43,846 nt of DNA from a virus: IMG/VR virus record IMGVR_UViG_3300037421_000071. One strand, given 5' to 3'. The notes under the pieces were generated by a model. It ran no database searches. It was not told where the DNA came from and worked only from the letters and a program-made list of their open reading frames with translations. Position 1 is the stretch's first letter, and the number at the start of each line of letters is the position of its first letter. The position numbers and the translations under genes were made by a program. Below, one piece after another: positions 1 through 43,846 of this stretch.

Positions 1-127
1 TCGAGAGGTTGTCGAGCTTGCCGGAATAGGGAAGCGAGTTCCCGGCTTCGGTGATGGTGAGCGTGCCCTGTACGATGGTGAAGTTCGTCTCGGGCATGGT
101 ATTGGTTTCGGTCAATACCCCGCCCGC
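1..127. repeat. 127-bp exact direct repeat, copy 1 (identical to 43720..43846)
   Basis: Read off both ends: tcgagaggttgtcgagcttgcc...gtcaataccccgcccgc occurs at 1-127 and at 43720-43846 with no mismatch. This is typical of a circular contig opened arbitrarily or of a direct terminal repeat. Confidence 0.95.
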
Positions 128-319
128 CGTCGCGACATCGGAGAACACGTCCCAGGTGAAGGTATCGCCCTTCTTCTTCCCCTGCTGGGAGATGTCGTGG
201 ACGTCCGAGAACTGTCGGAACTTGGTGAGCGGTTGGACCGCCGCTCTCAGGACGTTCGAGAGCTGACGCGAATAGAAGTAGCCGCCGAGAGAGTTAACCG
301 CCCAAACTTGACCTGACAT
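1..319 (-). CDS. major capsid protein, N-terminal segment (gene runs off the window start and continues at 43719 downward on the closed map)
   Basis: Minus-strand ATG at 319-317 gives MSGQVWAVNSLGGYFYSRQLSNVLRAAVQPLTKFRQFSDV...GDTFTWDVFSDVATAGGV with no stop to base 1. The codon the track uses as start at 43834 (= position 115 here, a TTG) is codon 69 of this frame. Total is about 323 aa. Confidence 0.75.
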   Translation of the reverse strand, partial: MSGQVWAVNSLGGYFYSRQLSNVLRAAVQPLTKFRQFSDVHDISQQGKKKGDTFTWDVFSDVATAGGVLTETNTMPETNFTIVQGTLTITEAGNSLPYSGKLDNLS

Positions 320-356: not shown

Positions 357-1343
357 TTAGGTTTTTCCTCCGAACATCCCCTGCGGAGTCCGGATCGCCT
401 GTTCCTGCCCGCGAGCTTTCGCCATGGCATCGATGACGCTCTCGACGGGTTCCTCGACATCCTCTTCCCGTGGAGGCGATTGCCGACTACCGGCTGCCGG
501 GACCGCGGGAGTGGTTGCCTTGCGGGTTAGCTTCGAGTTGGAATCAGTCACTTTGGAAAAACCTTGTTTCCACGTCCGGATGGTATCGCCGGCCTTCTTG
601 AGGCGTTCACGGTAAGCGAGAGAAGGTTCGCTCTGAGCGATCTTCTTGTCTTCTTCGACCACCAGCCGGTACAGGAACGGGTCTTTCACGACGTCCTGAT
701 ATTCGCCGCGAAACCAGTTCACCGCATCGTGGAAGGTCATACGGTCATCGACGGCGCTGAGGACGTCCGGGCTGAGTGTCTGCCGGGATGGCCCGTTCAG
801 TCGCCGTGCGACCTTGTCGATCGCTTCCCGATCCCCCTGCAAGGCCGCGGTGAGGGTGTCCGCGGTGACGTCTTCCACGTCACTCGCCGATACGTCTTGC
901 GATGGCACCAGCGCTTGGGACCGTTTTACAGCTTCCTGCGCCATTTGCAAATACTCATCCGCGGAGGCCACCTTGGCGGCGCGCGCCATGAGTTCCGTCT
1001 CGGTCATCTCCACATCGCGTCCGTTCACCCGGACGGTGAAGGTACGAGGCTGTGCGCCTTCCTGGAGGGCCTTGGCTTCGGCTTCGTTCGCTTCACGCTC
1101 AAGACGTGCGCGCTGCTCTTCCGCCGCCTGCGCTTCTTGCGCGGCGCGGGCTTCCTCGGGATCCGGAGGGACCGGTTTCTCACCATCAAAGTCCTGGAGT
1201 TCTCGGGCTGCATCCGCGCTGTCGGCTATGGCGTTGCGCTTGTCCACCTGTTCCTGATTGGTATTGCCGACGGCCGCTTCGAGTTTCTTCTCGGCTTCCT
1301 CGGCCTTCTTGTCTTCGGGCGTCGCTTGTTTAGGTCTGGGCAT
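357..1343 (-). CDS. scaffolding protein (putative)
   Basis: 328-aa ORF immediately upstream of the capsid gene. It is highly charged and E/A/K/Q-rich with predicted helices (AEEAEKKLEAA, AAQEAQAAEEQRARLEREANEAEAKALQE). Position and composition are typical of podovirus scaffolds. Confidence 0.6.
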   Translation of the reverse strand: MPRPKQATPEDKKAEEAEKKLEAAVGNTNQEQVDKRNAIADSADAARELQDFDGEKPVPPDPEEARAAQEAQAAEEQRARLEREANEAEAKALQEGAQPRTFTVRVNGRDVEMTETELMARAAKVASADEYLQMAQEAVKRSQALVPSQDVSASDVEDVTADTLTAALQGDREAIDKVARRLNGPSRQTLSPDVLSAVDDRMTFHDAVNWFRGEYQDVVKDPFLYRLVVEEDKKIAQSEPSLAYRERLKKAGDTIRTWKQGFSKVTDSNSKLTRKATTPAVPAAGSRQSPPREEDVEEPVESVIDAMAKARGQEQAIRTPQGMFGGKT

Positions 1344-1885: not shown

Positions 1886-2680
1886 CTAGTCATCCCACAT
1901 CAGGAATTCCATGAGATAGGTCGCGGCTTCGAGGTCGATTCGTTCGCGCACTTTGCGCAGACGCTCTTGCGCCACCTGTTCGCGGTAGCGCGCGACCTTG
2001 GCAAGTGACTGCAGACGCTGATGGGCCTCAACGCGGCGCACCCCGGCGGATTTCTGCGGGAGCCTGAAATATACAGGAACTTCGATGGCTTGCTGCTTTT
2101 CGCGCTCCTGGGCGCGTCGGAGCGCCCGCTCGAAGTTCGCGATATAGCGCAGTACTTCCGCCGGGGTCGGGCCGTATTGCGGGGTAGCGGAGAGTTGCTC
2201 CTCGACTTCTATCCGCTGCGCAGTGGCTTCCGCGAGGCTCTCCTCGAGTCTCGCCATCTCCTCTTCGAACACCTCAGCCGCGCGTTTGATCCGGCGGCGC
2301 TTGCCGGACCCGCCGGGCTTCGCGACCACCGGAAGATCCCCGCCGGTCGCACTGATTACGCCCTCGGTGAACGTCGCGGTCTGCCCCGTCGGGACAGAGG
2401 AACCCGTGTCGGTGAGCGTCCCTTCGGTGAAGGTCGCTGTTATAGCGGTTAGAGCGTAATCAGCTTCAGACCCGATAATTCCTTCGGCACCCGAAACAGT
2501 CTGTGCTGTGAGGGAATAAGCCTCCTGATAAGCGATAATCCCCTCGGTACTCGTGATCGTCTGCGTCGCGAGTCCCAAATCCTGATCTGTCGAAAGCGTG
2601 ATCCAGGGGAACGGATCGACTTGATCGTCATTCCTGATCCAGATCGGAGAGTCATAGAACGGTTGATTGATGGTCGCCAA
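1886..2680 (-). CDS. repeat-containing fibre-like protein with charged coiled-coil C-terminus
   Basis: 264 aa. Residues ~35-115 hold four ~20-aa repeats (LATQTITSTEGII.., LTAQTVSGAEGII.., LTAITATFTEGTL.., TGQTATFTEGVI..) of the same type as in ORF 34213..35823. The C-terminal half is E/R/K/Q-rich and helical. Confidence 0.6.
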   Translation of the reverse strand: MATINQPFYDSPIWIRNDDQVDPFPWITLSTDQDLGLATQTITSTEGIIAYQEAYSLTAQTVSGAEGIIGSEADYALTAITATFTEGTLTDTGSSVPTGQTATFTEGVISATGGDLPVVAKPGGSGKRRRIKRAAEVFEEEMARLEESLAEATAQRIEVEEQLSATPQYGPTPAEVLRYIANFERALRRAQEREKQQAIEVPVYFRLPQKSAGVRRVEAHQRLQSLAKVARYREQVAQERLRKVRERIDLEAATYLMEFLMWDD

Positions 2681-21534: not shown

Positions 21535-21650
21535 AACTTGGCTTTGAGTTTCGAGAGATCTGTCGCCAACGTCACACCGAACTTGTAGTAGAGATAGGCT
21601 CCCGCACCCATCCCGACAAGCACGCCTAAAATGAATGACACGATACTCAT
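21531..21650 (-). CDS. 39-aa single-TM protein (holin/antiholin candidate)
   Basis: Called from ATG 21650 (MSIVSFILGVLVGMGAGAYLYYKFGVTLATDLSKLKAKL). It forms ATGA with the endolysin stop. Confidence 0.45.
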   Translation of the reverse strand: MSIVSFILGVLVGMGAGAYLYYKFGVTLATDLSKLKAKL

Positions 21651-22093
21651 ACGTTCTCCTGTGGTAGTTCCCATACCCCAGATTCCATCATGTCCATCTC
21701 CAGCACCGCCCTCTGAGGCGTCTGCTTGGCCCAATCACTATCGAGCCCCGCCTGTGCAGCCCCCGCGAAATCCCGCGCCTGAAGCGCTGTCGTGAAGTTC
21801 GGCCAGTAAAGAGGGCTCTGGCCCATCTGGAAACACATGCTCACGCAAACCGCCTGGCGCACATCATTCATGTCCGGGTAATGCGGAAAGCCCTGCGCGA
21901 GTTGGCGCGCATGATCCATGTCCTGTTCCAAGAGTGAGTCCGCGAGTTCTTGCGTGATCGTGTGTCCAGTCCAGTCGACCGAGTTATTCAAGAGATGCCC
22001 CCAGCCGATAGTCCACAATCCCCGGGAATCTCTATAGGCTGTCAACCGGCAGCCCTCGAAGTGCTCGATCATGGCTTGGGCGAGATCGGTCAC
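21647..22093 (-). CDS. endolysin, GH24 (T4/lambda-type lysozyme)
   Basis: Called from GTG 22093, which forms GTGA with the upstream stop, giving 148 aa. IEHFEGCRLTAYRDSRGLWTIGWGH carries the E-D-T catalytic pattern of GH24 lysozymes. Confidence 0.85.
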   Translation of the reverse strand: MTDLAQAMIEHFEGCRLTAYRDSRGLWTIGWGHLLNNSVDWTGHTITQELADSLLEQDMDHARQLAQGFPHYPDMNDVRQAVCVSMCFQMGQSPLYWPNFTTALQARDFAGAAQAGLDSDWAKQTPQRAVLEMDMMESGVWELPQENV

Positions 22094-22593
22094 TTCCCAC
22101 TCCAATGAGCGATGTAGAAGATCCCCATGATGATCGTCGCTCCGAGTGAGATCACTGCAATGATCGTTGCCCAGCTGTCTCTCGTACCTTCCTTCACGCC
22201 AGCGGTGATATCGCGACGTTGACTCACGCTGCTCTCGAGCTTGTCTACCGCTTCCTTCATCGTCCTGAGTGCCTGTTCGCACTCGGAGCGTGGCATAAGC
22301 AGACGCGACTGATCGTTGAGGCTCTGTCTGAACTCGTTCACCGCATCGAAGCGTTTCTCAGAGGCCGTCTCGGCCTTGATCACGGCGCGGTCTGCAGCTG
22401 TAAGCGCAGCTTCCACCGCACTCTTCTGAGCGAGGAACGCGGCTGTAAGTGCTTCCGACTGTGCGAGAAAGCGCTGTTGGTAGCGCAGATCATTCGCGGC
22501 GATGAGTTCGGTCGTCCGCTTATCATTCGATTCGACGAGCACGCGCAGCGTCCGCAGCGACCACTCATCTCCGTTTGGATCACGGTCGGCCAT
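22090..22593 (-). CDS. coiled-coil protein with C-terminal TM anchor (function unknown; coupled to endolysin)
   Basis: Called from ATG 22593 (TGATG overlap with the tailspike stop), 167 aa. A long helical region is followed by WATIIAVISLGATIIMGIFYIAHW at the C-terminus. Confidence 0.55.
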   Translation of the reverse strand: MADRDPNGDEWSLRTLRVLVESNDKRTTELIAANDLRYQQRFLAQSEALTAAFLAQKSAVEAALTAADRAVIKAETASEKRFDAVNEFRQSLNDQSRLLMPRSECEQALRTMKEAVDKLESSVSQRRDITAGVKEGTRDSWATIIAVISLGATIIMGIFYIAHWSGK

Positions 22594-24368: not shown

Positions 24369-25684
24369 CCGTATGTGAACTCCTGCGCAAAGCCGAGCTT
24401 CTGCAACTCGGGGATCTTTTCATCGAGCGCTTCGCCGATGTCATCTCTGTAGATGATGTCCGGGACGTGGATCTCATCCACCGTCTTATACGCGCGGGTA
24501 CAGGCTTCGAGCACCGTCTTGCCCGTACCCGTCACCACAGCGAGGTAATCTCCCGCACTCGTCCAGGTGGGTGACTCCGTCAGGGATTCGCCGTTCATGG
24601 CCGGCACCGTCGTGATCTTCACCGACTGCGGAGATATGTAGCGCTTGTTCTCTTCTGTCACGCCGTAGATCGGGATCCCATCGGTCTCAGCCTTGGTGAG
24701 CTTGGAGTAGGGATAGTCCGGTTGTGCAACGACCACGCCGGCCGCGATCTTAGGCGAGACTTCGAGCGTATCCTCCCCCTCGCAGGCATCGAGCATCCAC
24801 TGCACGGGGTCGCCCTTGTGCAGCGCCATCATGATGTTGAAGGCCGGCCAGCCGAGGCGCGCAGTGAACTCGAGCGGCCACGCCTTGCCCGTGCCATCGA
24901 TGATGCAGTTCACATCGATGTCGCCGAGATGCCCCATGCTCACGAGGGCTTCCTCCAGCGGGGCGAGAACCGCATCAAAGAGCGGGGAGGACGATACGTA
25001 CTTGAGGATGGTGCCCGCCTCCCCGCAGTTCGGGCCCACATCCCCGGCCAGGAACTTCTTGCGCTCCCAGTTCTCGTTCGGCAAGCCGATGAACCCTTCC
25101 GCCCCCATCCACCGCGAGACTCCGAGCTCTATCCCCTCGATGAATTCCTGCAACATACAGGACCCCTTGAGCTTCATCCCGAGCTTCTGCCACCGCTGCA
25201 ACCGCGCGACCATATCGGCCGGTGACTTGCTGCAATAGGAGAGGGATTTATCATCCTCATCGCCTAACGGTTTGAAGACATATCTTTTCTCAGTCTTGCG
25301 AACGTGGCTTTCAGCCTCCTCCAGGGAATCGAATGTCTCAAACGGCGGTACCTCAATATCGTGATCCTCGAAAAACTCCATCCCCAAGGCGCGGTCGATC
25401 TCGAGCTTCGCGGAAGACACCGAGGGTCCGAAAACGGCAGTGCGGTCCCGGGCTCCCTGAAGCCGTGTCATGAACTCATGGTTGCCCGTGGGTATCACGA
25501 GATCCGCCCAGGGGATGGAAGTGAGCCAGTTGGCGATCTTCTCGATGCCCTTGAAGCCCTCTCCGATGGTAGGATTGGCGTTCTTTCCCAGGAAAAAGCG
25601 CACCGCGTGACCGGACTGAACCGCTCTCAGTGCAAGTGCCAATCCTTCCCCGATTGAGTCCATGCTGATGATGAGGACCTTCAC
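24365..25684 (-). CDS. PurD-like ATP-grasp ligase (phosphoribosylamine-glycine ligase family fold)
   Basis: 439 aa with a GTG start. MKVLIIS..., YVFKPLGDEDDKS, LQEFIEGIELGV, NWERKKFLAGDVGPNCGEAGT and IDVNCIIDGTGKAWPLEFTARLGWPAF align by eye with E. coli PurD blocks ([41 protein letters not shown]). Confidence 0.7.
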   Translation of the reverse strand: MKVLIISMDSIGEGLALALRAVQSGHAVRFFLGKNANPTIGEGFKGIEKIANWLTSIPWADLVIPTGNHEFMTRLQGARDRTAVFGPSVSSAKLEIDRALGMEFFEDHDIEVPPFETFDSLEEAESHVRKTEKRYVFKPLGDEDDKSLSYCSKSPADMVARLQRWQKLGMKLKGSCMLQEFIEGIELGVSRWMGAEGFIGLPNENWERKKFLAGDVGPNCGEAGTILKYVSSSPLFDAVLAPLEEALVSMGHLGDIDVNCIIDGTGKAWPLEFTARLGWPAFNIMMALHKGDPVQWMLDACEGEDTLEVSPKIAAGVVVAQPDYPYSKLTKAETDGIPIYGVTEENKRYISPQSVKITTVPAMNGESLTESPTWTSAGDYLAVVTGTGKTVLEACTRAYKTVDEIHVPDIIYRDDIGEALDEKIPELQKLGFAQEFTYG

Positions 25685-28788: not shown

Positions 28789-29451
28789 CTATGGGCCAAC
28801 ATTAGGATCTGGCAGACCAGACCCACCCTGGTTCTTTAATCCTGCAAGAGTCCTCTGCAGAACAGCGGTATCGATCCCTCCGCCGATAGCCTTGGTGATA
28901 CCCGCTATCGTGTTGGCATCGATGCCAGCGAGTGTCTGACCCTGACCGACGGTGAGGTTGGAGATATTGTTCGCGGCGTTGCCGATGTTCGCGGCTTGTC
29001 CAGCGGACGCGGCTTGTCCCAGCCCCACGGCGTTGGTGACATTCCCCACTTCCTGCTGATACGTCGTGCCCGCGAGTCCCTGGTTGAACTTGGAAAGGCC
29101 CTGCAACGTATTCCCCGAGAGCCCGAGGCCCATCGCGGACGCCTGATTGACGGTTCCCTCTGTGCCCTGCTGCTGCTCGAACTGATACCCCGGCATATTG
29201 CGTAACGTACTGAGCGCGCCAGCGCTGCCGCCTTTACCCAAGCCGAGAAGGCTTTCGAGTGTGGGGATCGCCGACTGACCAAGCGCTCGATAAGGAGCCG
29301 AGAGTTGCGCTTGTTGCTGAAGGGCCGACTGCTGCTGCTGGATCGCGGCGTTGGTCGCATCCTTCGTCGCGCCCGCCGCCTCGCTTCCAGCGTAGGCCGT
29401 CGCACCTGCCCCGACTACCGCCGCCCCCGCAATCGCCGCCGCTACGCACAT
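28789..29451 (-). CDS. internal virion / ejection protein with N-terminal hydrophobic segment (putative)
   Basis: Called from ATG 29451 (MCVAAAIAGAAVVGAGATAYAG...), 220 aa. G/Q/A/N-rich, with YQFEQQQG and many G-x-G tracts. Confidence 0.5.
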   Translation of the reverse strand: MCVAAAIAGAAVVGAGATAYAGSEAAGATKDATNAAIQQQQSALQQQAQLSAPYRALGQSAIPTLESLLGLGKGGSAGALSTLRNMPGYQFEQQQGTEGTVNQASAMGLGLSGNTLQGLSKFNQGLAGTTYQQEVGNVTNAVGLGQAASAGQAANIGNAANNISNLTVGQGQTLAGIDANTIAGITKAIGGGIDTAVLQRTLAGLKNQGGSGLPDPNVGP

Positions 29452-29945
29452 AGACGCCGCTCCATTACGATGTCGTCTCCGACATAACCCTTGGCTTTGA
29501 GAATCTCGTACACCGGACCGTTGAAGTGCACGGGCCAACCTAGAATTTTAGCGCCGAGCTCCATCATCTCTTTCTCGAATCGCTTCGCGACTGCCCAGGT
29601 GTGAGCCCTGTAGTCAGGCTCGATGTAAATCGAATCGCCGATCGCACAAAGCACCTTCTTGTGATGCAGGGCGTGATAGGTAAACCCTACGACATAGCCT
29701 TTCAATTGCCCCTCATCACGAAGCGTCACAAACACGAACCGTCCCTGATCGTGTAGCGTCTTATAGGTTTCTGCATCAGGCTCAATGTTGAAGTCTCTAT
29801 CCCCGAAATATGCACATGACTCGCCCTTGAATGCAGTGCTCTCATTCCAGCACTTCTGTGCGAGCGGTAGCATTTCGTTAAACAGCTCCATGCTGAACGG
29901 CTCTTTGTCGATGTTCACCGGATCGTCCCCGAACCATCCACCCAC
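29442..29945 (-). CDS. GNAT-fold N-acetyltransferase (putative)
   Basis: 167 aa. FVFVTLRDEGQLKGYVVGF...AIGDSIYIEPDYRAHTWAVAKRFEKEMMELGAK resembles GNAT motifs A/B (beta4-alpha3). The start could be 29945 or the ATG at 29891. Confidence 0.5.
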   Translation of the reverse strand: MGGWFGDDPVNIDKEPFSMELFNEMLPLAQKCWNESTAFKGESCAYFGDRDFNIEPDAETYKTLHDQGRFVFVTLRDEGQLKGYVVGFTYHALHHKKVLCAIGDSIYIEPDYRAHTWAVAKRFEKEMMELGAKILGWPVHFNGPVYEILKAKGYVGDDIVMERRLCA

Positions 29946-30181
29946 ACCGTGGGGTTTCGTGATTTCACATATACAGGAAAACCCAGCGTGGTATCGAAGT
30001 ACGCCTGACCCACATAGAGCGGATGCCGCGAACTGTCGGACGGCCGCTTGGCGGTAGTCCCTGAATCACCCACCGGACCCAACCACAGGTTGATTGATTC
30101 CATGAACGACAGCCAAACAAAGGTGATCACCCCGTTTTTGTCCGCAATCCGGCTATCGGTCGGCATGGTATTGATGCTCAT
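29915..30181 (-). CDS. small tail-associated protein
   Basis: 88 aa. GTTAKRPSDSSRHPLYVGQAYFDTTLGFPVYVKSRNPTVWVDGSG resembles the G-T-T-x-x-R-P...yFDTTLg.P.w...WvDa.G motif seen in phage fibre/spike-associated proteins. Confidence 0.5.
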   Translation of the reverse strand: MSINTMPTDSRIADKNGVITFVWLSFMESINLWLGPVGDSGTTAKRPSDSSRHPLYVGQAYFDTTLGFPVYVKSRNPTVWVDGSGTIR

Positions 30182-31608
30182 GCCGCCCTCTTCCGGCGCA
30201 CCTTCATGGCGCCTTCCGCAATCACGAATTTAACGGGGTCGGTCATGCGTATGCGAAAGGTCGCATCGAAGGTGGAGCCGAACCGTCTCCACCACACGCG
30301 CGTCAGGTACTTGCCCGCAGCACCCATGTCTTTCCAGCGCTCGGCCGACCAAGTGCGCCCGTTGTCCTTGGAGTATTGCAGCATGACCTGAGGCGCCGAG
30401 CCCTGCGCGTTCTGCAAGCCGACTCCAGTCTCCATGTCGAGGTAGAGACTCGAAACTCTGAAGCGGTTGAAGGCTGAAGTAGTGTGGCGCGTCACGATCT
30501 CGCGCACGATGGTTTGCCCGGCATCGGTGTATGTGGTGGGTGAAAACACGTAGATCTGGTTCGATTTGTAATCGGATACGTACGTGTTGCCGGCGAGATA
30601 GGCCGAGAGATTGGCGAGGTGTCGCACCGGACTCACCGAGGGTCCGGTCTGCATCTCGGTCCACAGGTCAGTCGCCATGTCATAGAGGAACGAGCGGTTG
30701 GCCGTCGGAAAGGTCACCTGATAAAAGCGGTGAACGTCGGTTCCGTAGGAACAGGCGACCGCGTCAGACGTCCGCGGGAACTGGTTGATGATGTAGTCGA
30801 GATCGGGATTGCTTATCGGTGCCGCACTGAAGCCCTGCAAGCGTACGAAGGTCACCGGTCCCTGGCGTGTCTGAGCGAGGAAGATCAGGTTATCCTGCAC
30901 GTGGGCGCGGGAGAATACCGCGGCGAGTCCGTATTCACCGGCAGCCGATACGATCGGCGCGAACGGCTGCGGGGCGAGGCCCGCGTTCTGCCAGAACTCG
31001 TAGTGCTGTTCCGAAAACGTGACGAGATTTCCGGACAGGTTATCGACCGCGAGAATCCGATCCGGGTAAGCCGAGGCGGACGCAAACGCGAGCGCATTCC
31101 ATGTCGAGCCGTCGTTGAAATTAGACACCCAGAACTGCTGCGTGCCGGGCGCTTCAGCCACAAAGAACCCCGAGGCATAAGTAACCGTCTTGGCGTTACT
31201 CGGGAAGGACGCCGACTGCACTGAGAACGCCTGCGAGGCGAGCGTATAGAGATATCCCGTGAACCCATCCGCAACCACGACCTGAGTGTTATTGGTCGCC
31301 ATCGAGAGATTGCCGACGCTCGAGCTCAGCGTGCGCGCGACGACCGCACTGCCGTTCGCGGTCAACTGCTGAAACTGGTTCCCCGATACCGAGAAGAGCG
31401 CCGTCTGCGTACCGAGTAATCCACGGACCGGCAGGCCCGCAATTGTGAAGGTCGGCACCATGCCGGGGGTGCCATACACTACGATGCGGCTTTTATCACC
31501 GTCCTGACGCTGTTCCATGTAGACATTGAGCCGCCGCTGACGCGTGATGACGTAGCTCTTGCCGTAGATCCCTGAGCCGAAAAGCGGGACCGGAGTGAGC
31601 GTGATCAT
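30178..31608 (-). CDS. tail hub / DNA-stabilisation protein (P22 gp10-like, beta-propeller-like)
   Basis: 476 aa directly after the adaptor-like gene. The repeated beta-rich blades and the C-terminal LQYSKDNGRTWS...RFGSTFDATFRIR block are as I recall for gp10/stabilisation-type proteins. Confidence 0.5.
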   Translation of the reverse strand: MITLTPVPLFGSGIYGKSYVITRQRRLNVYMEQRQDGDKSRIVVYGTPGMVPTFTIAGLPVRGLLGTQTALFSVSGNQFQQLTANGSAVVARTLSSSVGNLSMATNNTQVVVADGFTGYLYTLASQAFSVQSASFPSNAKTVTYASGFFVAEAPGTQQFWVSNFNDGSTWNALAFASASAYPDRILAVDNLSGNLVTFSEQHYEFWQNAGLAPQPFAPIVSAAGEYGLAAVFSRAHVQDNLIFLAQTRQGPVTFVRLQGFSAAPISNPDLDYIINQFPRTSDAVACSYGTDVHRFYQVTFPTANRSFLYDMATDLWTEMQTGPSVSPVRHLANLSAYLAGNTYVSDYKSNQIYVFSPTTYTDAGQTIVREIVTRHTTSAFNRFRVSSLYLDMETGVGLQNAQGSAPQVMLQYSKDNGRTWSAERWKDMGAAGKYLTRVWWRRFGSTFDATFRIRMTDPVKFVIAEGAMKVRRKRAA

Positions 31609-32648
31609 ATCGACTCATCCCGCCCCGGCTGGAAATAGAGTGCAGAGGTCTCTGAGTCCTGCTCGCGCGCCATACTGAGAGAGACCTGATAGTTCTCCTC
31701 CATGTCGTGCGTCCACTCGGCATCGAACATGGACGCGATTTCCTTCGACAGCCCCCAGCACAGAGCCCGGTACCACTGCTGAGGATATTCGGGATTGTCC
31801 GAGGGACTGTTGAGATCCATCACGGAGCGCAGGTAAACGATATGCAGGTGCTTGGTGACATCCTGCGGGAAGCAGTCGAGGTACAGCACCCCGCCGCCCG
31901 TGATGACGGGCGCATAGAGACCGCTCCCGATCTGACTCTCGTAGTACACGGCAGTGGGGTCTGAGAGAAAGGTCGGCATCGACTTATTAGGAAGTGTCTC
32001 GTACTCCTGCAGCGTCATGAAATTGAGCGGCGTGTCGTTGTTGTTGACATCACGCAGAGAGGCTATGGAAGTACGAAAATCGAGCTGCAGCGGACGCTGC
32101 GCGGTCACGGTGTAGTTCCACACGGTAGTACCGGCCGTGACGTTGGCCGTCGCCGGAACGAGCGCCGCCATGGTGACCGTTGTAGCTGTGACCGGTCCCG
32201 CGAGACAGATGAAGCTATCGCCCGTCGAAAGCGTCATCACCAGAGTGTCATTCACCGTGACCTTGCTCTGGATGTTCTGCGAAGGATCGAACGAGAGGAT
32301 ATTGGTCCCGCCAGCGGTGAGGGCGTTGGTCACACTCGTCTGGTGGGTGCCGGTCGAGGTTGACACCCCGCCGGCCCAGGCATCGCTATTGCTGCCACCG
32401 AGGACGTACTTGTTCTTCTTGATCGAGAGAAAGAGCGCGCCACGCTGACGCGTCCACATCTTAAGTCCCGGAGCAAAATCCTGGGTCCCCTGCCACTGCT
32501 TCACCATCATGTTGAGTTTCAGCCCACAGTCCAACGTCTCCTGGGCGGTCATGATCTCGCCCTCACCGAGCGCGCCGACATTCATCATGGCGATGCGAAT
32601 GACGTCATCTCGCGCGACGGTGAAGCTGAACGTATTACTGAGCGCCAT
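31605..32648 (-). CDS. head-to-tail adaptor (P22 gp4-like) with inserted beta-rich domain (putative)
   Basis: 347 aa. The N-terminus ARDDVIRIAMMNVGALGEGEIMTAQETLDCGLKLNMMVKQWQ matches the pattern common to podovirus adaptor proteins. The middle ~100 aa are T/V/A-rich and Ig-like. Confidence 0.45.
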   Translation of the reverse strand: MALSNTFSFTVARDDVIRIAMMNVGALGEGEIMTAQETLDCGLKLNMMVKQWQGTQDFAPGLKMWTRQRGALFLSIKKNKYVLGGSNSDAWAGGVSTSTGTHQTSVTNALTAGGTNILSFDPSQNIQSKVTVNDTLVMTLSTGDSFICLAGPVTATTVTMAALVPATANVTAGTTVWNYTVTAQRPLQLDFRTSIASLRDVNNNDTPLNFMTLQEYETLPNKSMPTFLSDPTAVYYESQIGSGLYAPVITGGGVLYLDCFPQDVTKHLHIVYLRSVMDLNSPSDNPEYPQQWYRALCWGLSKEIASMFDAEWTHDMEENYQVSLSMAREQDSETSALYFQPGRDESI

Positions 32649-34216
32649 TACGCCGCCTTATCCTGCCGCTTATCGATGTAGGCGCGTATCGCATCCCAGG
32701 TGATGGAGGGATGCAGGTCCTCCTGGCACTGCGCGCACTTGGTTTCGGCTCCCTTCTGACAGTGCTTCCAGCCGTAGTGCATCTGGTGACAGGCCGGGGC
32801 GTAGTTCTTCCCCCGGCCGGGACAGCTCGTGTTCCTGGACCAGAGGGGGGTGGTACTCACCCAGTCGCGCGTGAGGTTTTCGTGACTCGAGTGTGAGAGA
32901 AACACCACTTTCGGCATCGGCTCACACGCCACCGAATTGAGTATCCCCGTCTCTCCACCCACGACGATATCCGCCGCCTGGGTGAAGGCGAGACTCTGAC
33001 GGATGTTCCACACCCCGCAGGTCCGGTGGACGCGAGTCTCGTTCTCCCACCCGGCCTCGAGCAGCTTGCCCTCGGGACCACCAACGAGAAACACGTGCAC
33101 GTCGGGATAGGAAATCATGATCCGCGCAACGATGGGGTCGAGATAGGGATAAGCCTTGTGGACGGACGAGCCCGCCAGTGCCCACACCAGGACATAGTCC
33201 AGGCCGGCGCGTTGATCCAGCGCCCATTTGCGTTCCGCAGGAGTCGGATAAAAACGGACCTGGGGCCGGTGCGGGACACCGGCGAGTTCGTGCTGGAACT
33301 CGAGATAGTTGCGATTCATCATCTTGTGACGCACATCGGGCGGCCACTCGTGCTGTGCATGTCCCGGCATGGCGAGAAAGGTTCCTTCGACCGATTCCGA
33401 GAGGTTCACGAACAGGTTGTATTTCTTGCGCTCGTGATCCCAGAACTCACCGAGACAGTGGTTAGGGACCTGGTCCTTGTCCTGTAGATAGAGATGATCG
33501 ATGTTAGGGTCGTGACGTACCGCGTCTACGCCCGGAGGAGATGAATAGAGCGTGACGTGATAACCCTGTTTCTTAAGTCCCGCAAACACCGATGAGGCTT
33601 GCAGCATATCCCCAAACGCTCCGTATCTCACGACTCCGGCGGTCTTTTTAGGCTTGGGATTACGGTAAGAGACAACCCGCCCTGATTCGGTCTTCTTAAA
33701 GACGTAGAGCCCTGAGTACTCATCGTCCTGATCGCGCAGTTGGTAAAGCACCAGTTCCCATCCACAGGTGACTGCATCCATGTAGTGAAGCAGGGTACAG
33801 TAATCTGGTTCCCATTTGTGGTCAGGATTACAGCCGTCATCTCCAATGTGTGGATAGAGCTTGCTATCAGGCAGGTAGAGCACGAGATGACCGCCGATCT
33901 TAAGGACACGGCACCACTCTTCCAGACACTTAGCTACGTTCTCGGGCTCGATGTGCTCAAGCGTGTGCGATGAGAACACGAAGTCGAGAGACGCCGTCGC
34001 GAAGATACCGAGGTCGAGACAGGTCTCGATCCTGATATCCGGCTTGATGATCTGGCCGAACATCTCGTGATGACAGTTATCCACTCCGATGAAGTGCGGA
34101 AAGCACTTGATCGGCCCGCAACCGATATCGAGGCCCTTCCCTCTCGTATAGGGGACGATCTCCCAGCGGCACTTCTGGGATTCGTTGCCTTTGGAGGTTT
34201 CCAGTGTCCAGGTCAT
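32648..34216 (-). CDS. fusion protein: class I SAM-dependent methyltransferase + glycosyltransferase family 9 (heptosyltransferase-like) + Cys-rich tail
   Basis: 522 aa. MTase motifs are GKGLDIGCGPIK, SLDFVFSSHTLEHI and LKIGGHLVLYLPD. GT9-like blocks are VVRYGAFGDMLQASSVFAGLKKQGYHVTLY, YVLVWALAGSSVHKAYP, VFLVGGPEG and IRQSLAFTQAADIVVGGETGILN. The tail reads C-x11-C-x10-C-x8-C-x2-C. There are 4-nt and 1-nt overlaps with the flanking virion genes. Confidence 0.7.
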   Translation of the reverse strand: MTWTLETSKGNESQKCRWEIVPYTRGKGLDIGCGPIKCFPHFIGVDNCHHEMFGQIIKPDIRIETCLDLGIFATASLDFVFSSHTLEHIEPENVAKCLEEWCRVLKIGGHLVLYLPDSKLYPHIGDDGCNPDHKWEPDYCTLLHYMDAVTCGWELVLYQLRDQDDEYSGLYVFKKTESGRVVSYRNPKPKKTAGVVRYGAFGDMLQASSVFAGLKKQGYHVTLYSSPPGVDAVRHDPNIDHLYLQDKDQVPNHCLGEFWDHERKKYNLFVNLSESVEGTFLAMPGHAQHEWPPDVRHKMMNRNYLEFQHELAGVPHRPQVRFYPTPAERKWALDQRAGLDYVLVWALAGSSVHKAYPYLDPIVARIMISYPDVHVFLVGGPEGKLLEAGWENETRVHRTCGVWNIRQSLAFTQAADIVVGGETGILNSVACEPMPKVVFLSHSSHENLTRDWVSTTPLWSRNTSCPGRGKNYAPACHQMHYGWKHCQKGAETKCAQCQEDLHPSITWDAIRAYIDKRQDKAA

Positions 34217-35823
34217 TGTTGCGGCGGATTGTCAGGAGTTCCGAGATTAGGGCTATATATACCGGTCGTTCCCATATCGGTTGAGTCTTTGTAGTTGCCT
34301 CCCGAGAACTGGTAGATGCGGTGATCGGGTGCCCGAAACTCTGACCCCCACGCGCGCGAGGCCATCTCGCCCCACGAGAAGGTCCGCGTGGTGACGGGTT
34401 TGCCGAGCTGAGGTGGTATGAAAAGCGGGGGCCCCGTACCCGGCGGCGGTGGCGGCGGAACAGTTAGGCCGAAAACGCCTTCAGTGAGAACCACGATCTG
34501 CGAACCGAGCTGCACCGTGAATGCGCCGGTATTCGAGAAGTTGAGCACTCCTTGAACCGAGGTGATCGTTTCGGCCGTCGGAAAATAGTCCGCTTCAAGT
34601 CCCAGCACTCCCATGCCTGCCGCGATGTTCTGAGAAGCTAGGGTGTTGGTAACATTGTTACCGGCCTGAGTGGAGATAGTCCCCTCAACGCTCACGATAT
34701 TCTGCGCCGCTAGAGCGGTCGCAAGACTCTGAGTGAGAGTCCCTTCGGTAGAGGCGAGAGTCTGCGCAGTCAGTGCCGGAGAAACCGACGGTGCAAGCGT
34801 CCCCTGACTCAAGCTGATGTCCTGACCGACCAGGATCACCTGGTTCTGGTCGAGGATGTACGAGATGTTATCGGCGAGGGTTCCCTCTTGGAACTGTGCG
34901 CTTTGCGCGCTCAACGACGTGGTAACGTCGTTATTGATCAATGGAGAAAGCGTGCCTTCCGCAGAAGTGATCGTTTGGCCGACAAGCGGTAACGCGGTGA
35001 ATATCAGCCCTTCGTTGATTGAGACGGTCTGCGCGGTAAGACTCGGGGAAAGCGTAGGGGCAACAGTACCGATCGTGTAAGTTGCGGTCTGCTGAGTCTG
35101 GGGGGCGGCTACATTAGTCCCGATTTGACCGGTACTGGAAGAAACCGTCTGCGCCGTAAGTGGTATTCCACCCAAAAACTGCAACGCAATGTGCGCTATC
35201 GGGACACCGACGCTGCCGCCAGAGCCTGCGCCGTTATCTATGAAAATGAACGGCCCACCGTTACCGTTTGAGGTGTCGGAGGTCGTGAAAGTAACCCCGA
35301 CTCCCGAGGTATCGGTTGTGGTGGCCCAACTAGCTATCGTGGTGAGATTGCCTGCCGCATCGACTACATGCCCGGAGGACCAGCCGTTAGGCAGAGAGAC
35401 CGTGAACAATGTGCCGTTAGAATCGCGTACGGTAAGACTCGCGATGCGTCCCGCCGGCACAGCATTCGTTGCATCACCGATAGCCAACCACAGCTTGTAC
35501 TGTCCAGCCGCGGCCCCCGCCTGAATCTTTATACTGAGTGGGTTAGCACCACCTGGGCTTTGATTACCGGCACAGCGCGCGTCAACGGAAGTGCTACGGT
35601 TACGGGCGCCATCGATATTGCCCGTAGTGACGCCGGTAGAAGTTACCACCCAGCCGCAGCTGAACGTATTACCGTTGATCGTCAACGGCCCGGGGCTAAA
35701 TGAGCCCGAGTATCCGGATATCGATGTCGAGGACGTGCTGACGAGTGCCCCGCAACCGGTGGGGTCGGTTACGTAAGCGAGTGTCTGCCGCAGATCAATA
35801 CCGGTTTTAGTAATCCAAGCCAT
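34213..35823 (-). CDS. tail fibre with ~11 imperfect ~20-aa S/T-rich repeats
   Basis: 536 aa. After an N-terminal globular ~220 aa come repeats of the form L-(T/S/A)-A-Q-x-(I/V)-x-S-x-(E/Q)-G-(T/V)-L, such as LTAQTVSINEGLI, LVGQTITSAEGTL, LSAQSAQFQEGTL, LTAQTLASTEGTL and LAAQNIVSVEGTI. These are followed by a PPPPPPG tract and a C-terminal domain. Confidence 0.65.
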   Translation of the reverse strand: MAWITKTGIDLRQTLAYVTDPTGCGALVSTSSTSISGYSGSFSPGPLTINGNTFSCGWVVTSTGVTTGNIDGARNRSTSVDARCAGNQSPGGANPLSIKIQAGAAAGQYKLWLAIGDATNAVPAGRIASLTVRDSNGTLFTVSLPNGWSSGHVVDAAGNLTTIASWATTTDTSGVGVTFTTSDTSNGNGGPFIFIDNGAGSGGSVGVPIAHIALQFLGGIPLTAQTVSSSTGQIGTNVAAPQTQQTATYTIGTVAPTLSPSLTAQTVSINEGLIFTALPLVGQTITSAEGTLSPLINNDVTTSLSAQSAQFQEGTLADNISYILDQNQVILVGQDISLSQGTLAPSVSPALTAQTLASTEGTLTQSLATALAAQNIVSVEGTISTQAGNNVTNTLASQNIAAGMGVLGLEADYFPTAETITSVQGVLNFSNTGAFTVQLGSQIVVLTEGVFGLTVPPPPPPGTGPPLFIPPQLGKPVTTRTFSWGEMASRAWGSEFRAPDHRIYQFSGGNYKDSTDMGTTGIYSPNLGTPDNPPQQ

Positions 35824-42875: not shown

Positions 42876-43070
42876 CTAGCGCTTATCGGGCTTCTTCAAC
42901 TTCATGATGGTCGTGGGAGCGGTTCTGTCGGGAACTACGCTCGGGCTGTTCACCGCGATCGTGAGTCCCGCGCCGTCGTAATACCCGTGGGTGTATACGG
43001 CTTCCAGTCCCTCGAGTTCACCCACATCGAGGTTGGCTTTGTAGATCGCTTCGAGCTGCTGGAGCGTCAT
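42876..43070 (-). CDS. hypothetical protein
   Basis: 64-aa ORF with an ATGA overlap to the capsid gene stop. Confidence 0.45.
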   Translation of the reverse strand: MTLQQLEAIYKANLDVGELEGLEAVYTHGYYDGAGLTIAVNSPSVVPDRTAPTTIMKLKKPDKR

Positions 43071-43846
43071 GCCGCACTATCCCATTTCACGATGCGGACG
43101 TTCGCGGCGAGTGTATGAACGATGCCGAAGCCACCTAAGTAGTACCAGGCGATACCCTTGCTCCGTCCGTAGTCGGTCGGGATCTTGCCGCGCATCTCCT
43201 CGGGTACCGCGATTGCTTCAGCGACCGTGTCGTTACCGAAAAAGAAGATCCAGTCGGACTTCGCCTGACTCCAGGCGGTCGTTGTGATGCCGTCCGTCCC
43301 GGTGCCCTTGGCGATGTTGGTCTGCTCGATGTAGCGCACGTTCTCGTAGCGGCCGATCTCGCCGTTCATGATGAGATTGAAGCCGGTGTCGGAATACTGG
43401 TGGATCGTCTCGAGGTTGTTCTTGAACGTTCGCAGCGTCGTCGGCCAGGCGAGCGCGTAGTAGTCATCCGCGATGTAAGCGGGGATGTTGCGTTCCTTCA
43501 TCGTGTCCACGATGGATTTCGCATGGGAGTTGGAGTAGGCGACCGTGTTGGTACCCGTGACGGTGCCATTGGTGTAGAGCTGAATGGCCGATGTATCCGT
43601 ACCGCTCGATGCGATTACCCGCAGCAGTGTCTGGTTAAACTGTGTCCACGCGAGCCGATCGAAGCTCTTCACCGCATCGTTCTTGAGGACTTTCTTGATG
43701 ACATCCTCGACGGGGAACTTCGAGAGGTTGTCGAGCTTGCCGGAATAGGGAAGCGAGTTCCCGGCTTCGGTGATGGTGAGCGTGCCCTGTACGATGGTGA
43801 AGTTCGTCTCGGGCATGGTATTGGTTTCGGTCAATACCCCGCCCGC
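43067..43846 (-). CDS. major capsid protein (HK97-fold type), C-terminal 259 codons; the 5' end lies beyond the window end and is found at 128..319
   Basis: The ORF reads to the window edge. It lies directly after the scaffold gene on the closed map. Sequence features include DDYYALAWPTTLRTFKNNLE, GEIGRYENVRYIEQTNI and GIAWYYLGGFGIVH. Full length is ~323 aa when joined with 1..319. Confidence 0.75.
   Translation of the reverse strand, partial: AGGVLTETNTMPETNFTIVQGTLTITEAGNSLPYSGKLDNLSKFPVEDVIKKVLKNDAVKSFDRLAWTQFNQTLLRVIASSGTDTSAIQLYTNGTVTGTNTVAYSNSHAKSIVDTMKERNIPAYIADDYYALAWPTTLRTFKNNLETIHQYSDTGFNLIMNGEIGRYENVRYIEQTNIAKGTGTDGITTTAWSQAKSDWIFFFGNDTVAEAIAVPEEMRGKIPTDYGRSKGIAWYYLGGFGIVHTLAANVRIVKWDSAA
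43720..43846. repeat. 127-bp exact direct repeat, copy 2 (identical to 1..127)
   Basis: See copy 1. Confidence 0.95.

What the first reader, a model, noticed from the sequence alone, without database searches (positions are those of the whole stretch)
32648..34216. Methyltransferase-GT9 (heptosyltransferase-like) fusion hard-wired behind a repeat fibre: candidate virion glycosylation system
A single 522-aa ORF joins a class I SAM methyltransferase, a GT9-like domain and a Cys-rich tail. Its start overlaps the stop of the repeat-fibre gene (34213-34216), and its end overlaps the start of the adaptor gene (32648). It is therefore part of the structural operon rather than an autonomous moron, although it looks somewhat AT-richer than its neighbours. 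GT9 enzymes are known in two roles. One is LPS core heptosyltransferases (WaaC/WaaF). The other is the AAH/TibC family, which O-heptosylates Ser/Thr in the imperfect ~19-aa repeats of AIDA-I/TibA autotransporters and, as I recall, uses a Cys-bound iron finger. Here the gene immediately upstream encodes ~11 imperfect ~20-aa S/T-rich repeats, and a second protein (1886..2680) carries the same repeat. Hypothesis: the fusion glycosylates, and then methylates the sugar on, the fibre shaft. The alternative is that it remodels host LPS core, for receptor masking.
Basis: partly seen in the sequence, partly recalled or inferred. Interest (0 to 1): 0.8.

Follow-up and report, generated by a model that had tools for sequence, protein, structure and literature searches.

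The report
Phage methyltransferase-glycosyltransferase fusion beside adaptor gene

Summary
The 522-aa ORF (32648..34216, minus) exists, with ATGA and TAATG overlaps to its neighbours. It combines a class I SAM methyltransferase (Pfam E=3.8e-9), a GT9 GT-B glycosyltransferase (Foldseek 3tov 2e-12; profile-profile vs WaaF 96.6%), and a tail with four invariant Cys that align with TibC's four iron ligands. Six other GT9 enzymes checked lack these Cys.

The "hard-wired behind a repeat fibre" reading fails as a general rule. The repeat occurs only in this phage and its closest relatives among about 108 phage loci, and at 73% identity another methyltransferase gene already separates fibre and fusion. 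The conserved linkage is fusion to adaptor gene (66/77 loci; 64/68 when anchored on the adaptor).

The family is large (466 representatives at 50% identity) and absent from GenBank phages, but present as prophages in Paraburkholderia isolates. Relatives fuse the core to TylF, FkbM and a second glycosyltransferase, which points to methylated-glycan synthesis. The acceptor lobe is charge-neutral like TibC's, not basic like LPS enzymes.

Best reading (about 0.5): a late-expressed enzyme that glycosylates and O-methylates a conserved virion protein. The acceptor is unproven, and LPS remodelling remains a live rival.

The parts
32648..34216 (-). Fusion gene, 522 aa: SAM methyltransferase + GT9 glycosyltransferase + Cys4 finger
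   Evidence: ORF. 3048 homologues, the top 120 full-length. AF2 pLDDT 87.1, pTM 0.82.
33665..34216 (-). Class I SAM methyltransferase domain (residues ~1-184). Motif I is LDIGCGP (D30, G32, G34); D46 and the SSHxLEH motif are conserved.
   Evidence: PF08241 E=3.8e-9. PDB profile hits 3dli 4.7e-5 and 1ve3 5e-4. Foldseek methyltransferase hits. Invariant columns.
33197..33649 (-). GT9 N-lobe (acceptor lobe, residues ~190-340). Contains RYGAFGD with invariant D203, equivalent to WaaC D13 / TibC D110, and the invariant QDKDQVPN motif. Net charge is about +1.
   Evidence: Alignments. Charge analysis. DSSP shows four strands.
32837..33196 (-). GT9 C-lobe (donor lobe, residues ~341-460). Contains GSSVHK (K354, equivalent to WaaC K192) and GGETG (E422-T-G, equivalent to WaaC D261-T-G).
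   Evidence: hhalign vs WaaF family: 96.6%, E=6.5e-10. MAFFT with WaaC/F/Q/U and TibC.
32726..32824 (-). Cys4 'finger' (C465-x10-C476-H-x8-C486-x10-C497). The ancestral form is CxxCH...C...C; the window clade has an 8-residue insertion in the first knuckle.
   Evidence: Invariant Cys. They align with TibC C339/C342/C358/C370. Absent from WaaC, WaaF, WaaQ, WaaU and 3tov.
31605..32648 (-). Tail adaptor gene (347 aa), translationally abutted to the fusion. This is the family-wide conserved neighbour.
   Evidence: phrog_12985 2.3e-17. SU10_adaptor E=0.005. Adjacent in 66/77 loci and in 64/68 adaptor-anchored loci.
30178..31608 (-). Nozzle / P22 gp10-like 'head closure Hc3' gene (476 aa)
   Evidence: phrog_578 6.1e-93. 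PF11134 in relatives.
34213..35823 (-).
   Evidence: ORF. Homologues only in L086/L087/L088.
34468..35160 (-). Ten imperfect repeats (residues 222-452) of L-x-[AG]-Q-[TS]-[IV]-x-S-x-E-G-[TV]-[LI], spaced 18-40 residues apart
   Evidence: Repeat HMM. Non-circular test: 4 units vs 0 in 300 shuffles.
34225..34440 (-). Near-invariant C-terminal module of p536 (residues 462-533), probably its attachment domain. Homologous to small stand-alone ORFs upstream of the portal gene in 11 distant loci.
   Evidence: Alignment A5 invariant block. BLAST hits q465-535 in 56-93 aa ORFs.
2348..2569 (-). Four copies of the same repeat in the 264-aa protein (gene 1886..2680), which has a charged helical C-terminal half
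43067..43846 (-). 3' part of the major capsid gene (323 aa). The gene spans the window ends; the rest is at 1..319.
   Evidence: 127-nt terminal overlap shows a circular genome. Reconstructed ORF. phrog_1357 3.6e-19.
1..319 (-). 5' part of the major capsid gene (start codon at about 319)

Best explanation
The gene encodes a cytoplasmic, late-expressed bifunctional enzyme. Its GT9 (GT-B, inverting) domain transfers a sugar from a nucleotide sugar onto a hydroxyl of an acceptor, with D203 as the catalytic base. By family precedent the donor is ADP-heptose made by the Gram-negative host. The fused class I SAM methyltransferase then O-methylates that sugar.

The enzyme is a core gene of the head-tail module of a large, uncultured podophage clade with an SU10-type portal and a P22 gp10-type nozzle. 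It is always placed directly before the adaptor gene. The most likely acceptor is a virion structural protein that all members share: capsid, a small head protein, adaptor or nozzle, possibly also spikes or fibres where present. That would make this a virion protein glycosylation system. The Cys4 finger would act as a metal-stabilised protein-protein (substrate or oligomerisation) module, as in TibC.

Shown here: domain identities, conserved catalytic motifs, conserved gene position, family breadth, and co-fusion with other sugar-modifying domains.

Inferred: the donor sugar, methylation of the sugar, the identity of the acceptor, and metal binding.
For: Enzyme identity:
- Methyltransferase.
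- GT9 by fold, by family-level Pfam/NCBIfam hits, and by hhalign vs WaaF at 96.6%.
- Invariant D203, K354 and E422-T-G, plus SAM motifs, so it is under selection as an active enzyme.

Structural-operon core gene:
- ATGA and TAATG overlaps.
- No promoter or terminator excess, and GC3 equal to the genome.
- Adaptor adjacent in 66/77 loci and 64/68 adaptor-anchored loci.
- The same order holds in Paraburkholderia prophages.

Glycan-building role:
- Relatives fuse the MT11-GT9 core to FkbM (P0392), TylF (P0468), and a GT8-like glycosyltransferase with or without FkbM (P0456, P0481).
- Separate TylF or FkbM genes often lie directly upstream.
- The methyltransferase and GT occur split (L103) or as GT alone (L109-L111).

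Protein acceptor favoured over LPS:
- N-lobe net charge is +1.0 / -0.8, like BAHT (-0.8), against +3 to +9 in WaaC/F/Q/U.
- WaaC's basic R60-K64 patch is replaced by the invariant QDKDQVPN motif.
- The Cys4 module aligns with TibC's iron ligands and is absent from six non-BAHT GT9s. In TibC that finger mediates dimerisation and substrate recognition (PMC4358343).

Precedents: the PBCV-1 A064R GT+GT+MTase enzyme builds and methylates the capsid glycan (PMC9614988). Mycobacteriophage virion glycosylation is reported (Freeman 2023, cited in PMC12582341).
Against: - No acceptor is identified and no virion data exist.
- The catalytic core is closest to LPS heptosyltransferases (WaaF 96.6% against TibC 15.5%), and nearly all characterised GT9 enzymes act on LPS.
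- The TibC match is weak statistically (probability 15.5%, E=1.7e-3). Cys-rich segments can attract each other in alignments.
- TibC's beta-barrel, thumb and dodecamer are absent or untested.
- Some relatives also carry an Asp_Arg_Hydrox-family gene (the family that includes lipid A hydroxylase LpxO, from my own knowledge), and the window has a weak PagL-like hit. These could be read as an LPS theme.
- The charge argument is crude, because lobe boundaries were taken from one model.
- Gene overlap is common in phage operons and does not prove functional coupling with the adaptor.
Confidence: 0.5

Rival explanations
1. Host envelope remodelling. The GT9 domain adds a (methyl-)heptose to the LPS inner core or another lipid-linked glycan of the infected cell. 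This would mask the receptor, so that progeny are not wasted on debris and superinfection is blocked.
For: - The catalytic core is homologous over its full length to WaaF, and members hit the heptosyltransferase I/II/III models.
- JGI annotates the family as ADP-heptose:LPS heptosyltransferase.
- Hosts are Gram-negative.
- Some relatives carry an Asp_Arg_Hydrox (LpxO-family) gene, and the window has a weak PagL-like ORF.
- Terminal O-methylated sugars are known LPS chain caps (own knowledge).
Against: - The gene is embedded by overlaps in the late head-tail operon, not placed as a moron with its own signals.
- It would not be expressed from a prophage, and late expression leaves little time to replace outer-membrane LPS (inference).
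- The acceptor lobe lacks the basic character of LPS heptosyltransferases.
- The Cys4 protein-interaction module is absent from LPS-type GT9s.
- Strict linkage to the adaptor gene across the clade is unexplained by this model.
Confidence: 0.2
2. The enzyme is dedicated to the adjacent repeat protein p536 (and the 1886..2680 protein). It O-heptosylates Ser/Thr in their ~20-aa repeats, as TibC/AAH does on AIDA-I/TibA.
For: - The repeats are real and S/T-rich at fixed positions.
- ATGA coupling to the fusion.
- The same repeat occurs in a second protein.
- A TibC-like Cys4 finger is present.
- The repeat protein co-occurs with the fusion in the three closest relatives.
Against: - The enzyme family (466 representatives at 50% identity) is far broader than the repeat, which is absent from all other phage loci examined on both strands.
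- In L088 an FkbM gene separates the two genes.
- The repeats have no sequence similarity to AIDA/TibA repeats.
- The fold of the repeat region could not be predicted.
- The enzyme therefore predates the fibre, which can at best be an added substrate.
Confidence: 0.1
3. A non-protein, non-LPS acceptor: DNA hypermodification (glycosylation of a hydroxymethylated base) or a small molecule.
For: Phage GT-B enzymes that put heptose and other sugars on 5hmC exist, and some gene clusters lie near structural genes (10.1101/2023.12.21.572611).
Against: - No C5-MTase, 5mYOX/TET or ThyS-like gene was found among the larger ORFs of this 43.7-kb genome.
- Those DNA glycosyltransferases resemble T4 beta-GT, BshA and MshA, not GT9.
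- The methyltransferase here is a Methyltransf_11 small-molecule/sugar type, not a DNA methyltransferase.
Confidence: 0.07
4. A mainly structural or assembly role, for example a ring-forming factor at the portal-adaptor vertex, with catalysis secondary or lost.
For: The gene is invariably next to the dodecameric adaptor gene. TibC itself is a dodecameric ring.
Against: Catalytic and SAM-binding residues are invariant across deep divergence. Fusion to further enzymes argues for chemistry. No evidence for virion incorporation exists.
Confidence: 0.03

Closest known systems
LPS core heptosyltransferases WaaF/WaaC (CAZy GT9, PF01075)
   Same: GT-B fold. Full-length profile homology to WaaF (96.6%, E=6.5e-10). 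Conserved GD catalytic Asp, the K-x-[WY]-P lysine and the [DE]-[TS]-G motif. Foldseek E=5e-11 to 8e-8.
   Different: - N-terminal methyltransferase fusion.
- Cys4 finger inserted before the C-terminal helix.
- Neutral, not basic, acceptor lobe.
- D to E and H to N changes in the donor motif (GETGxxN against DTGxxH).
- Encoded in a phage structural operon.
Bacterial autotransporter heptosyltransferases TibC/AAH (BAHT; PF21129 + PF01075)
   Same: GT9-type catalytic domain (Foldseek 4e-7). Four Cys at the same topological position, aligning one-to-one with the iron ligands C339/C342/C358/C370. Near-neutral acceptor lobe. Cytoplasmic enzyme encoded next to large secreted or assembled proteins.
   Different: - No N-terminal beta-barrel (PF21129); a methyltransferase takes that position.
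- Profile similarity is confined to the last 111 columns (probability 15.5%).
- The knuckle spacing differs, and a conserved His follows Cys2.
- Thumb and dodecamer are untested.
- No autotransporter partner.
Chlorovirus PBCV-1 A064R (two rhamnosyltransferase domains + SAM methyltransferase domain)
   Same: A virus-encoded, soluble, multi-domain enzyme that joins glycosyltransferase and class I SAM methyltransferase activities. It builds and O-methylates the terminal sugar of the capsid-protein glycan (PMC9614988). The phage family likewise occurs fused to extra GT and methyltransferase domains.
   Different: Unrelated GT folds (GT-A against GT9 GT-B). Eukaryotic giant virus with N-glycans, and the gene is expressed early. 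No sequence homology was tested or expected.
Mycobacteriophage virion glycosylation (Che8/Corndog/Myrna type; Freeman et al. 2023, cited in PMC12582341)
   Same: Phage-encoded glycosyltransferases associated with structural genes that modify capsid and tail proteins. This is the only established tailed-phage precedent I know of.
   Different: Different host type (mycobacteria). As far as I recall, different GT families and no GT9 or Cys finger. The paper was not held in the library, so this comparison rests on memory and on the citation.

Membership tests
CAZy GT9 / PF01075 | GT-B fold with two Rossmann-like lobes | tested here: met
   AF2 pLDDT 87.1. The top Foldseek PDB hits are all GT9: 3tov 2.2e-12, 1psw 4.9e-11, WaaC, TibC.
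CAZy GT9 / PF01075 | Significant sequence-profile match to the family | tested here: met
   The window protein alone scores only at noise level (TIGR02201 E=0.099). However, 24/32 family members hit PF01075 with best E=2.5e-10. The GT-only profile hits 3tov at 0.0015. hhalign vs the WaaF family gives 96.6%, E=6.5e-10.
CAZy GT9 / PF01075 | Catalytic Asp in the N-terminal G-D motif (WaaC D13, TibC D110), Lys of K-x-W-P (WaaC K192), and an acidic-T/S-G donor motif (WaaC D261-T-G) | tested here: met
   D203, K354 and E422-T423-G424 are invariant and align to the WaaC/WaaF/TibC motifs. The acidic residue is Glu, not Asp.
CAZy GT9 / PF01075 | ADP-heptose as donor | not testable with these tools
   Inferred from family membership only. 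GT9 also contains non-heptose transferases (own knowledge).
BAHT (TibC/AAH) | N-terminal flattened beta-barrel domain (PF21129) | tested here: not met
   All BAHT hits carry PF21129. The phage protein has a Methyltransf_11 domain there and no PF21129 hit.
BAHT (TibC/AAH) | Cys4 iron finger inserted in the C-lobe before the C-terminal helix | tested here: met
   Four invariant Cys align one-to-one with TibC C339/C342/C358/C370. The statistical support is weak (probability 15.5%, E=1.7e-3). Metal identity cannot be tested here.
BAHT (TibC/AAH) | Homology across the whole catalytic domain, including the atypical N-lobe | tested here: not met
   hhalign aligns only the last 111 columns. The N-lobe aligns to WaaF instead. 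The model's N-lobe shows four strands, which is suggestive but unverified.
BAHT (TibC/AAH) | Beta-hairpin thumb and dodecameric ring | not testable with these tools
   No coordinates or multimer prediction were available. The region equivalent to the thumb is a conserved loop (LEAGWENEPRVHR) and not a hairpin in the DSSP string.
BAHT (TibC/AAH) | Adjacent autotransporter substrate with ~19-aa strand-loop-strand repeats | tested here: not met
   No autotransporter is present. A repeat protein is adjacent only in the window and its closest relatives.
Class I SAM-dependent methyltransferase (PF08241) | Profile match above the curated cutoff, Rossmann-like fold, and motif I plus an acidic residue after beta-2 | tested here: met
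   37.5 bits against a cutoff of 21.2. PDB methyltransferase hits. D30, G32, G34 and D46 are conserved.
Phage virion glycosylation system | Glycan demonstrated on virion proteins | not testable with these tools
   Only genomic context supports it.

The most novel reading that the evidence does not exclude
A widespread clade of podophages infecting Gram-negative bacteria carries, as a core structural-module gene, a TibC-like (Cys4-finger) GT9 enzyme fused to a sugar methyltransferase. This enzyme O-glycosylates virion proteins with methylated heptose drawn from the host's ADP-heptose pool. That would be the first virion glycosylation system in phages of Gram-negatives, and a phage branch of the protein-heptosylating GT9 enzymes. 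A more speculative extension is that it works as a ring on the 12-fold portal-adaptor vertex.
Probability: 0.4. Interest if true: 0.8.

Novelty: new variant of a known kind. Interest (0 to 1): 0.62.

Why it matters
Virion glycosylation is established for giant algal viruses and for a few mycobacteriophages, but not for phages of Gram-negative bacteria. Here a GT9 + methyltransferase enzyme is a conserved, positionally fixed member of the head-tail module in thousands of uncultured phage sequences. It has no counterpart in GenBank phage records.

If it decorates virions with methyl-heptose, that would affect several things: how these particles are recognised (by receptors, antibodies and grazers), how stable they are in soil and water, and how structural genes are annotated in viromes. 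It would also extend protein heptosylation beyond autotransporter virulence factors.

The presence of intact copies in cultured Paraburkholderia strains makes the question directly testable. Even if the target turns out to be LPS, a late-operon core LPS-modifying enzyme would be an unusual phage strategy.

Tried and rejected
1. Direct sequence searches of the window protein. Against PDB and INPHARED phages they gave nothing useful. Family profiles and fold search were needed.
2. A regex for the repeat missed obvious copies in L087. I replaced it with an HMM, then a non-circular HMM plus shuffles.
3. AF2 of the repeat protein. The single-sequence model had pLDDT 32, so the TibA-like beta-helix analogy is untested and no fold search was run on it.
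4. I first took the 328-aa ORF (357..1343) for the capsid gene and found no phage hit. This was corrected: that ORF occupies the scaffold position, and the true capsid gene spans the circular junction.
5. DNA hypermodification was considered and set aside for lack of partner enzymes.
6. Foreign-origin or moron status was rejected on GC3 and the lack of flanking signals.
7. Foldseek ranking alone cannot separate TibC from WaaF. After allowing for domain lengths, the TM-scores are similar. Profile-profile comparison and lobe charge were used instead.
8. The single adaptor-anchored locus without the fusion (L169) is a rearranged genome and only partly in hand, so it is not informative about loss of the gene.
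9. The ~450-aa family members with a different N-terminus gave no Pfam hit there, so there is no evidence for a TibC-like barrel.
10. Literature searches found no description of this fusion. The Freeman 2023 paper is not held in the library.


Full report
**Observation.** The window carries a 522-aa ORF at 32648..34216 on the minus strand. Its ATG overlaps the stop of the upstream gene (ATGA, 34213-34216). Its TAA overlaps the ATG of the downstream gene (TAATG at 32648). The downstream genes are a tail adaptor (phrog_12985 2.3e-17; weak SU10_adaptor) and a P22 gp10-like nozzle (phrog_578 6e-93). The upstream 536-aa protein contains ten imperfect repeats, L-x-[AG]-Q-[TS]-[IV]-x-S-x-E-G-[TV]-[LI], spaced 18-40 residues apart. 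The 264-aa protein at 1886..2680 has four. An HMM trained only on units from other proteins still finds four units in the fibre, against none in 300 shuffles. The factual part of the finding is therefore confirmed. The 'AT-richer' remark is marginal: GC is 0.572 against 0.592 +/- 0.014, but GC3 is 0.709 against 0.700. No promoter or terminator excess flanks the gene.

**Domains.** The N-terminal ~184 residues are a class I SAM methyltransferase. The evidence is PF08241 at E=3.8e-9, above the curated cutoff, PDB methyltransferase hits with the family profile, and Foldseek. A 32-sequence alignment (A1) gave a confident AF2 model (pLDDT 87.1, pTM 0.82). Its best PDB matches are all GT9 enzymes: Veillonella 3tov 2.2e-12, WaaF 4.9e-11, WaaC 8e-8, TibC 4e-7. 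BFVD returns uncultured-phage 'RfaF' proteins. At family level, 24/32 members hit PF01075 (best 2.5e-10) and 19/32 hit the heptosyltransferase I model. The catalytic Asp (D203 in RYGAFGD), the Lys of GSSVHK (K354) and the E422-T-G donor motif are invariant. They align with WaaC D13/K192/D261-T-G and TibC D110/K230.

**TibC-like or WaaF-like?** I retrieved TibC from ETEC H10407 and WaaF, WaaC, WaaQ and WaaU from E. coli K-12. I built family alignments for BAHT (A3) and WaaF (A4) and a broad GT-only alignment of the phage family (A2).
- Against WaaF, profile-profile comparison gives 96.6% probability, E=6.5e-10, over 309 columns. This covers both lobes.
- Against BAHT it gives 15.5%, E=1.7e-3, over only the last 111 columns.
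- Within that stretch, the four Cys that are invariant in the phage family (window C465, C476, C486, C497) align one-to-one with the four iron ligands of TibC: C339, C342, C358, C370 (PMC4358343).
- Distant family members have a true CxxCH...C...C pattern. The window clade has an 8-residue insertion in the first knuckle.
- WaaC, WaaF, WaaQ and WaaU and 3tov have no Cys at these positions.
- TibC's N-terminal beta-barrel (PF21129, present in every BAHT hit) is absent.

The enzyme is therefore a GT9 with a canonical WaaF-like core, a TibC-like metal-finger module, and a methyltransferase where TibC has its barrel. A crude acceptor-lobe test points away from LPS. N-lobe net charge is +6.9 (WaaF family), +8 (WaaC), +9 (WaaU) and +3 (WaaQ). 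It is +1.0 / -0.8 for the phage family and -0.8 for BAHT. WaaC's basic R60-K64 patch corresponds to an invariant QDKDQVPN motif.

**Context, the decisive part.** The family is very large:
- 3048 clusters at 90% identity with E<=1e-3, the top 120 all full-length.
- At least 587 relatives in IMG/VR.
- 466 representatives at 50% identity with E<=1e-30.
- No tblastn match in 50,697 GenBank phage records.

Synteny findings:
- In 85 loci the adaptor homologue is present in 77 and directly follows the fusion in 66, mostly with 0 or -4 nt junctions.
- Anchoring the search on the adaptor instead, 64 of 68 loci have the full fusion immediately upstream. In three the methyltransferase part is missing (the GT match runs to the contig edge in at least two), and one (L169) is rearranged.
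- The usual order is portal, scaffold-position gene, capsid, small ORFs, (TylF or FkbM methyltransferase), fusion, adaptor, nozzle, ejection proteins.
- The repeat protein is found only in the window and its closest relatives: L086/L087 (80% identical fusion) and L088 (73%). In L088 an FkbM gene separates it from the fusion.
- No other phage locus has three or more repeat units in any frame.

The fusion therefore predates the fibre, and the fibre cannot explain why the fusion exists. The nearest cultured phages (Rhodoferax P26218, DSL-LC05; nozzle 30-33% identical) have a shorter adaptor and no glycosyltransferase or methyltransferase between capsid and adaptor. Intact copies lie in prophages of Paraburkholderia rhynchosiae WSM 3937 and Paraburkholderia sp. 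C35, and in MAG contigs of other Gram-negative lineages.

**What the enzyme makes.** Architectural variants act as Rosetta stones:
- FkbM + MT11 + GT9 (P0392).
- TylF + MT11 + GT9 (P0468).
- MT11 + GT9 + GT8-like, with or without FkbM (P0456, P0481).
- Methyltransferase and GT split into two ORFs (L103).
- An extra methyltransferase copy (L102).
- GT alone (L109-L111).

TylF and FkbM families are sugar O-methyltransferases by precedent (own knowledge). The common theme is therefore assembly of an O-methylated mono- or oligosaccharide. This is the logic of PBCV-1 A064R, which carries two glycosyltransferase domains plus a methyltransferase that methylates the terminal rhamnose of the capsid glycan (PMC9614988). 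About half of the long loci also carry TylF, Asp/Asn-hydroxylase-family or GNAT genes in the structural module. The window has none of these.

**Mechanism proposed.** Late in infection, the cytoplasmic enzyme uses a host nucleotide sugar to glycosylate a hydroxyl on an acceptor common to the whole clade, and its methyltransferase domain caps the sugar. By family the donor is ADP-heptose, which is inferred and not shown. I judge a virion structural protein the most likely acceptor (about 0.5). The reasons are the fixed place in the head-tail operon, the lack of independent expression signals, the neutral acceptor lobe, the TibC-like protein-interaction finger, and the viral precedents.

The rivals are:
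- LPS or envelope remodelling, about 0.2. It is supported by the WaaF-like core and by LpxO-family and PagL-like hints.
- DNA or a small molecule as acceptor, about 0.07. No C5-MTase, TET or ThyS was found.
- A mainly structural role, about 0.03.

**Limits.**
- No acceptor is identified.
- The TibC finger match is statistically weak.
- No coordinates were available for superposition or for checking metal geometry.
- The fibre fold could not be predicted.
- Host assignments from MAGs are unreliable, apart from the Paraburkholderia isolates.

**Verdict.** The enzyme call and the TibC parallel hold. The fibre-centred story does not. This is a new variant of known kinds (GT9/BAHT enzymes; virus-encoded GT + methyltransferase glycan builders). 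It is of moderate-to-high interest because it is widespread, positionally fixed, unstudied and experimentally tractable.

Noticed in passing
window 1-127 and 43720-43846: The first and last 127 nt are identical, so the window is a circularly closed, complete genome of 43,719 bp. The major capsid gene (323 aa, phrog_1357 E=3.6e-19) spans the junction and is missed by ORF listing.
   Followed up: yes
window 24365-25684 (-): A PurD-like ATP-grasp protein (GARS_C 2.8e-9, GARS_A 7.8e-6) is encoded among the ejection-protein genes, next to P22 gp7-like 28789..29538. It is conserved in 28 related loci, and in L169 it sits just upstream of a tail-fibre gene. An ATP-grasp ligase in a virion/ejection module is unexplained.
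   Followed up: partly
window 34225-34440 (-); L012:121-291, L021:2146-2334, L079:1170-1379 and 8 other loci: The last ~70 residues of the repeat protein are almost invariant among three relatives whose other parts are 40-52% identical. They are homologous to stand-alone 56-93-aa ORFs just upstream of the portal gene in 11 distant loci. This is probably a virion-attachment module that has been fused to different N-terminal parts.
   Followed up: partly
window 1886-2680 (-) and 2684-3868 (-): Two genes (264 aa and 394 aa) lie between the portal and the scaffold-position gene, where relatives have only a ~96-aa ORF. Neither has homologues in the other loci. The 264-aa protein combines four fibre-type repeats with a highly charged helical C-terminal half.
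   Followed up: partly
window 20329-20826 (-): A 165-aa ORF near the lysozyme gene (21647..22282) has a weak PagL (lipid A 3-O-deacylase) hit (E=0.0013). It may simply be a small outer-membrane beta-barrel protein.
   Followed up: no
L001:12621-13157, L002:12347-13353 and about 14 long loci: Many relatives encode an Asp_Arg_Hydrox-family oxygenase and a GNAT acetyltransferase just after the nozzle gene, and a TylF or FkbM methyltransferase just before the fusion. This is a variable set of modification enzymes inside the structural module. The window lacks them.
   Followed up: partly
L103:4498-6612; L102:3367-5429; L110:3228-5758: Architectural variants of the fusion: methyltransferase and GT as separate ORFs with about 530 nt between them (L103), the fusion followed by a second methyltransferase copy (L102), and two tandem GT-only paralogues (L110/L111).
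   Followed up: partly
L094 (CAVVLX010000006.1, 942,606-bp contig): A full fusion-adaptor-nozzle block (53% identity) lies on a 942-kb contig of a MAG labelled Thermoplasmata archaeon. Its adaptor is enlarged to 519 aa by an insertion. The label looks like misbinning or a chimeric contig, given that all other hosts are bacterial.
   Followed up: no
window 16718-16948 (+), in ORF 16236-17042: A 9-nt (also 21-nt) tandem repeat of about 26 copies encodes an Ala-rich low-complexity stretch (AAYAAVNADAAANA...) in a 268-aa early-region protein with no family hit.
   Followed up: partly
window 35833-37899 (-) and 37896-40853 (-): Two large proteins (688 aa and 985 aa) lie between the small head ORFs and the repeat protein, an unusual place for spike-like genes. 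The first has a weak GH5 cellulase hit (E=0.0011). Neither has homologues in the other loci.
   Followed up: no
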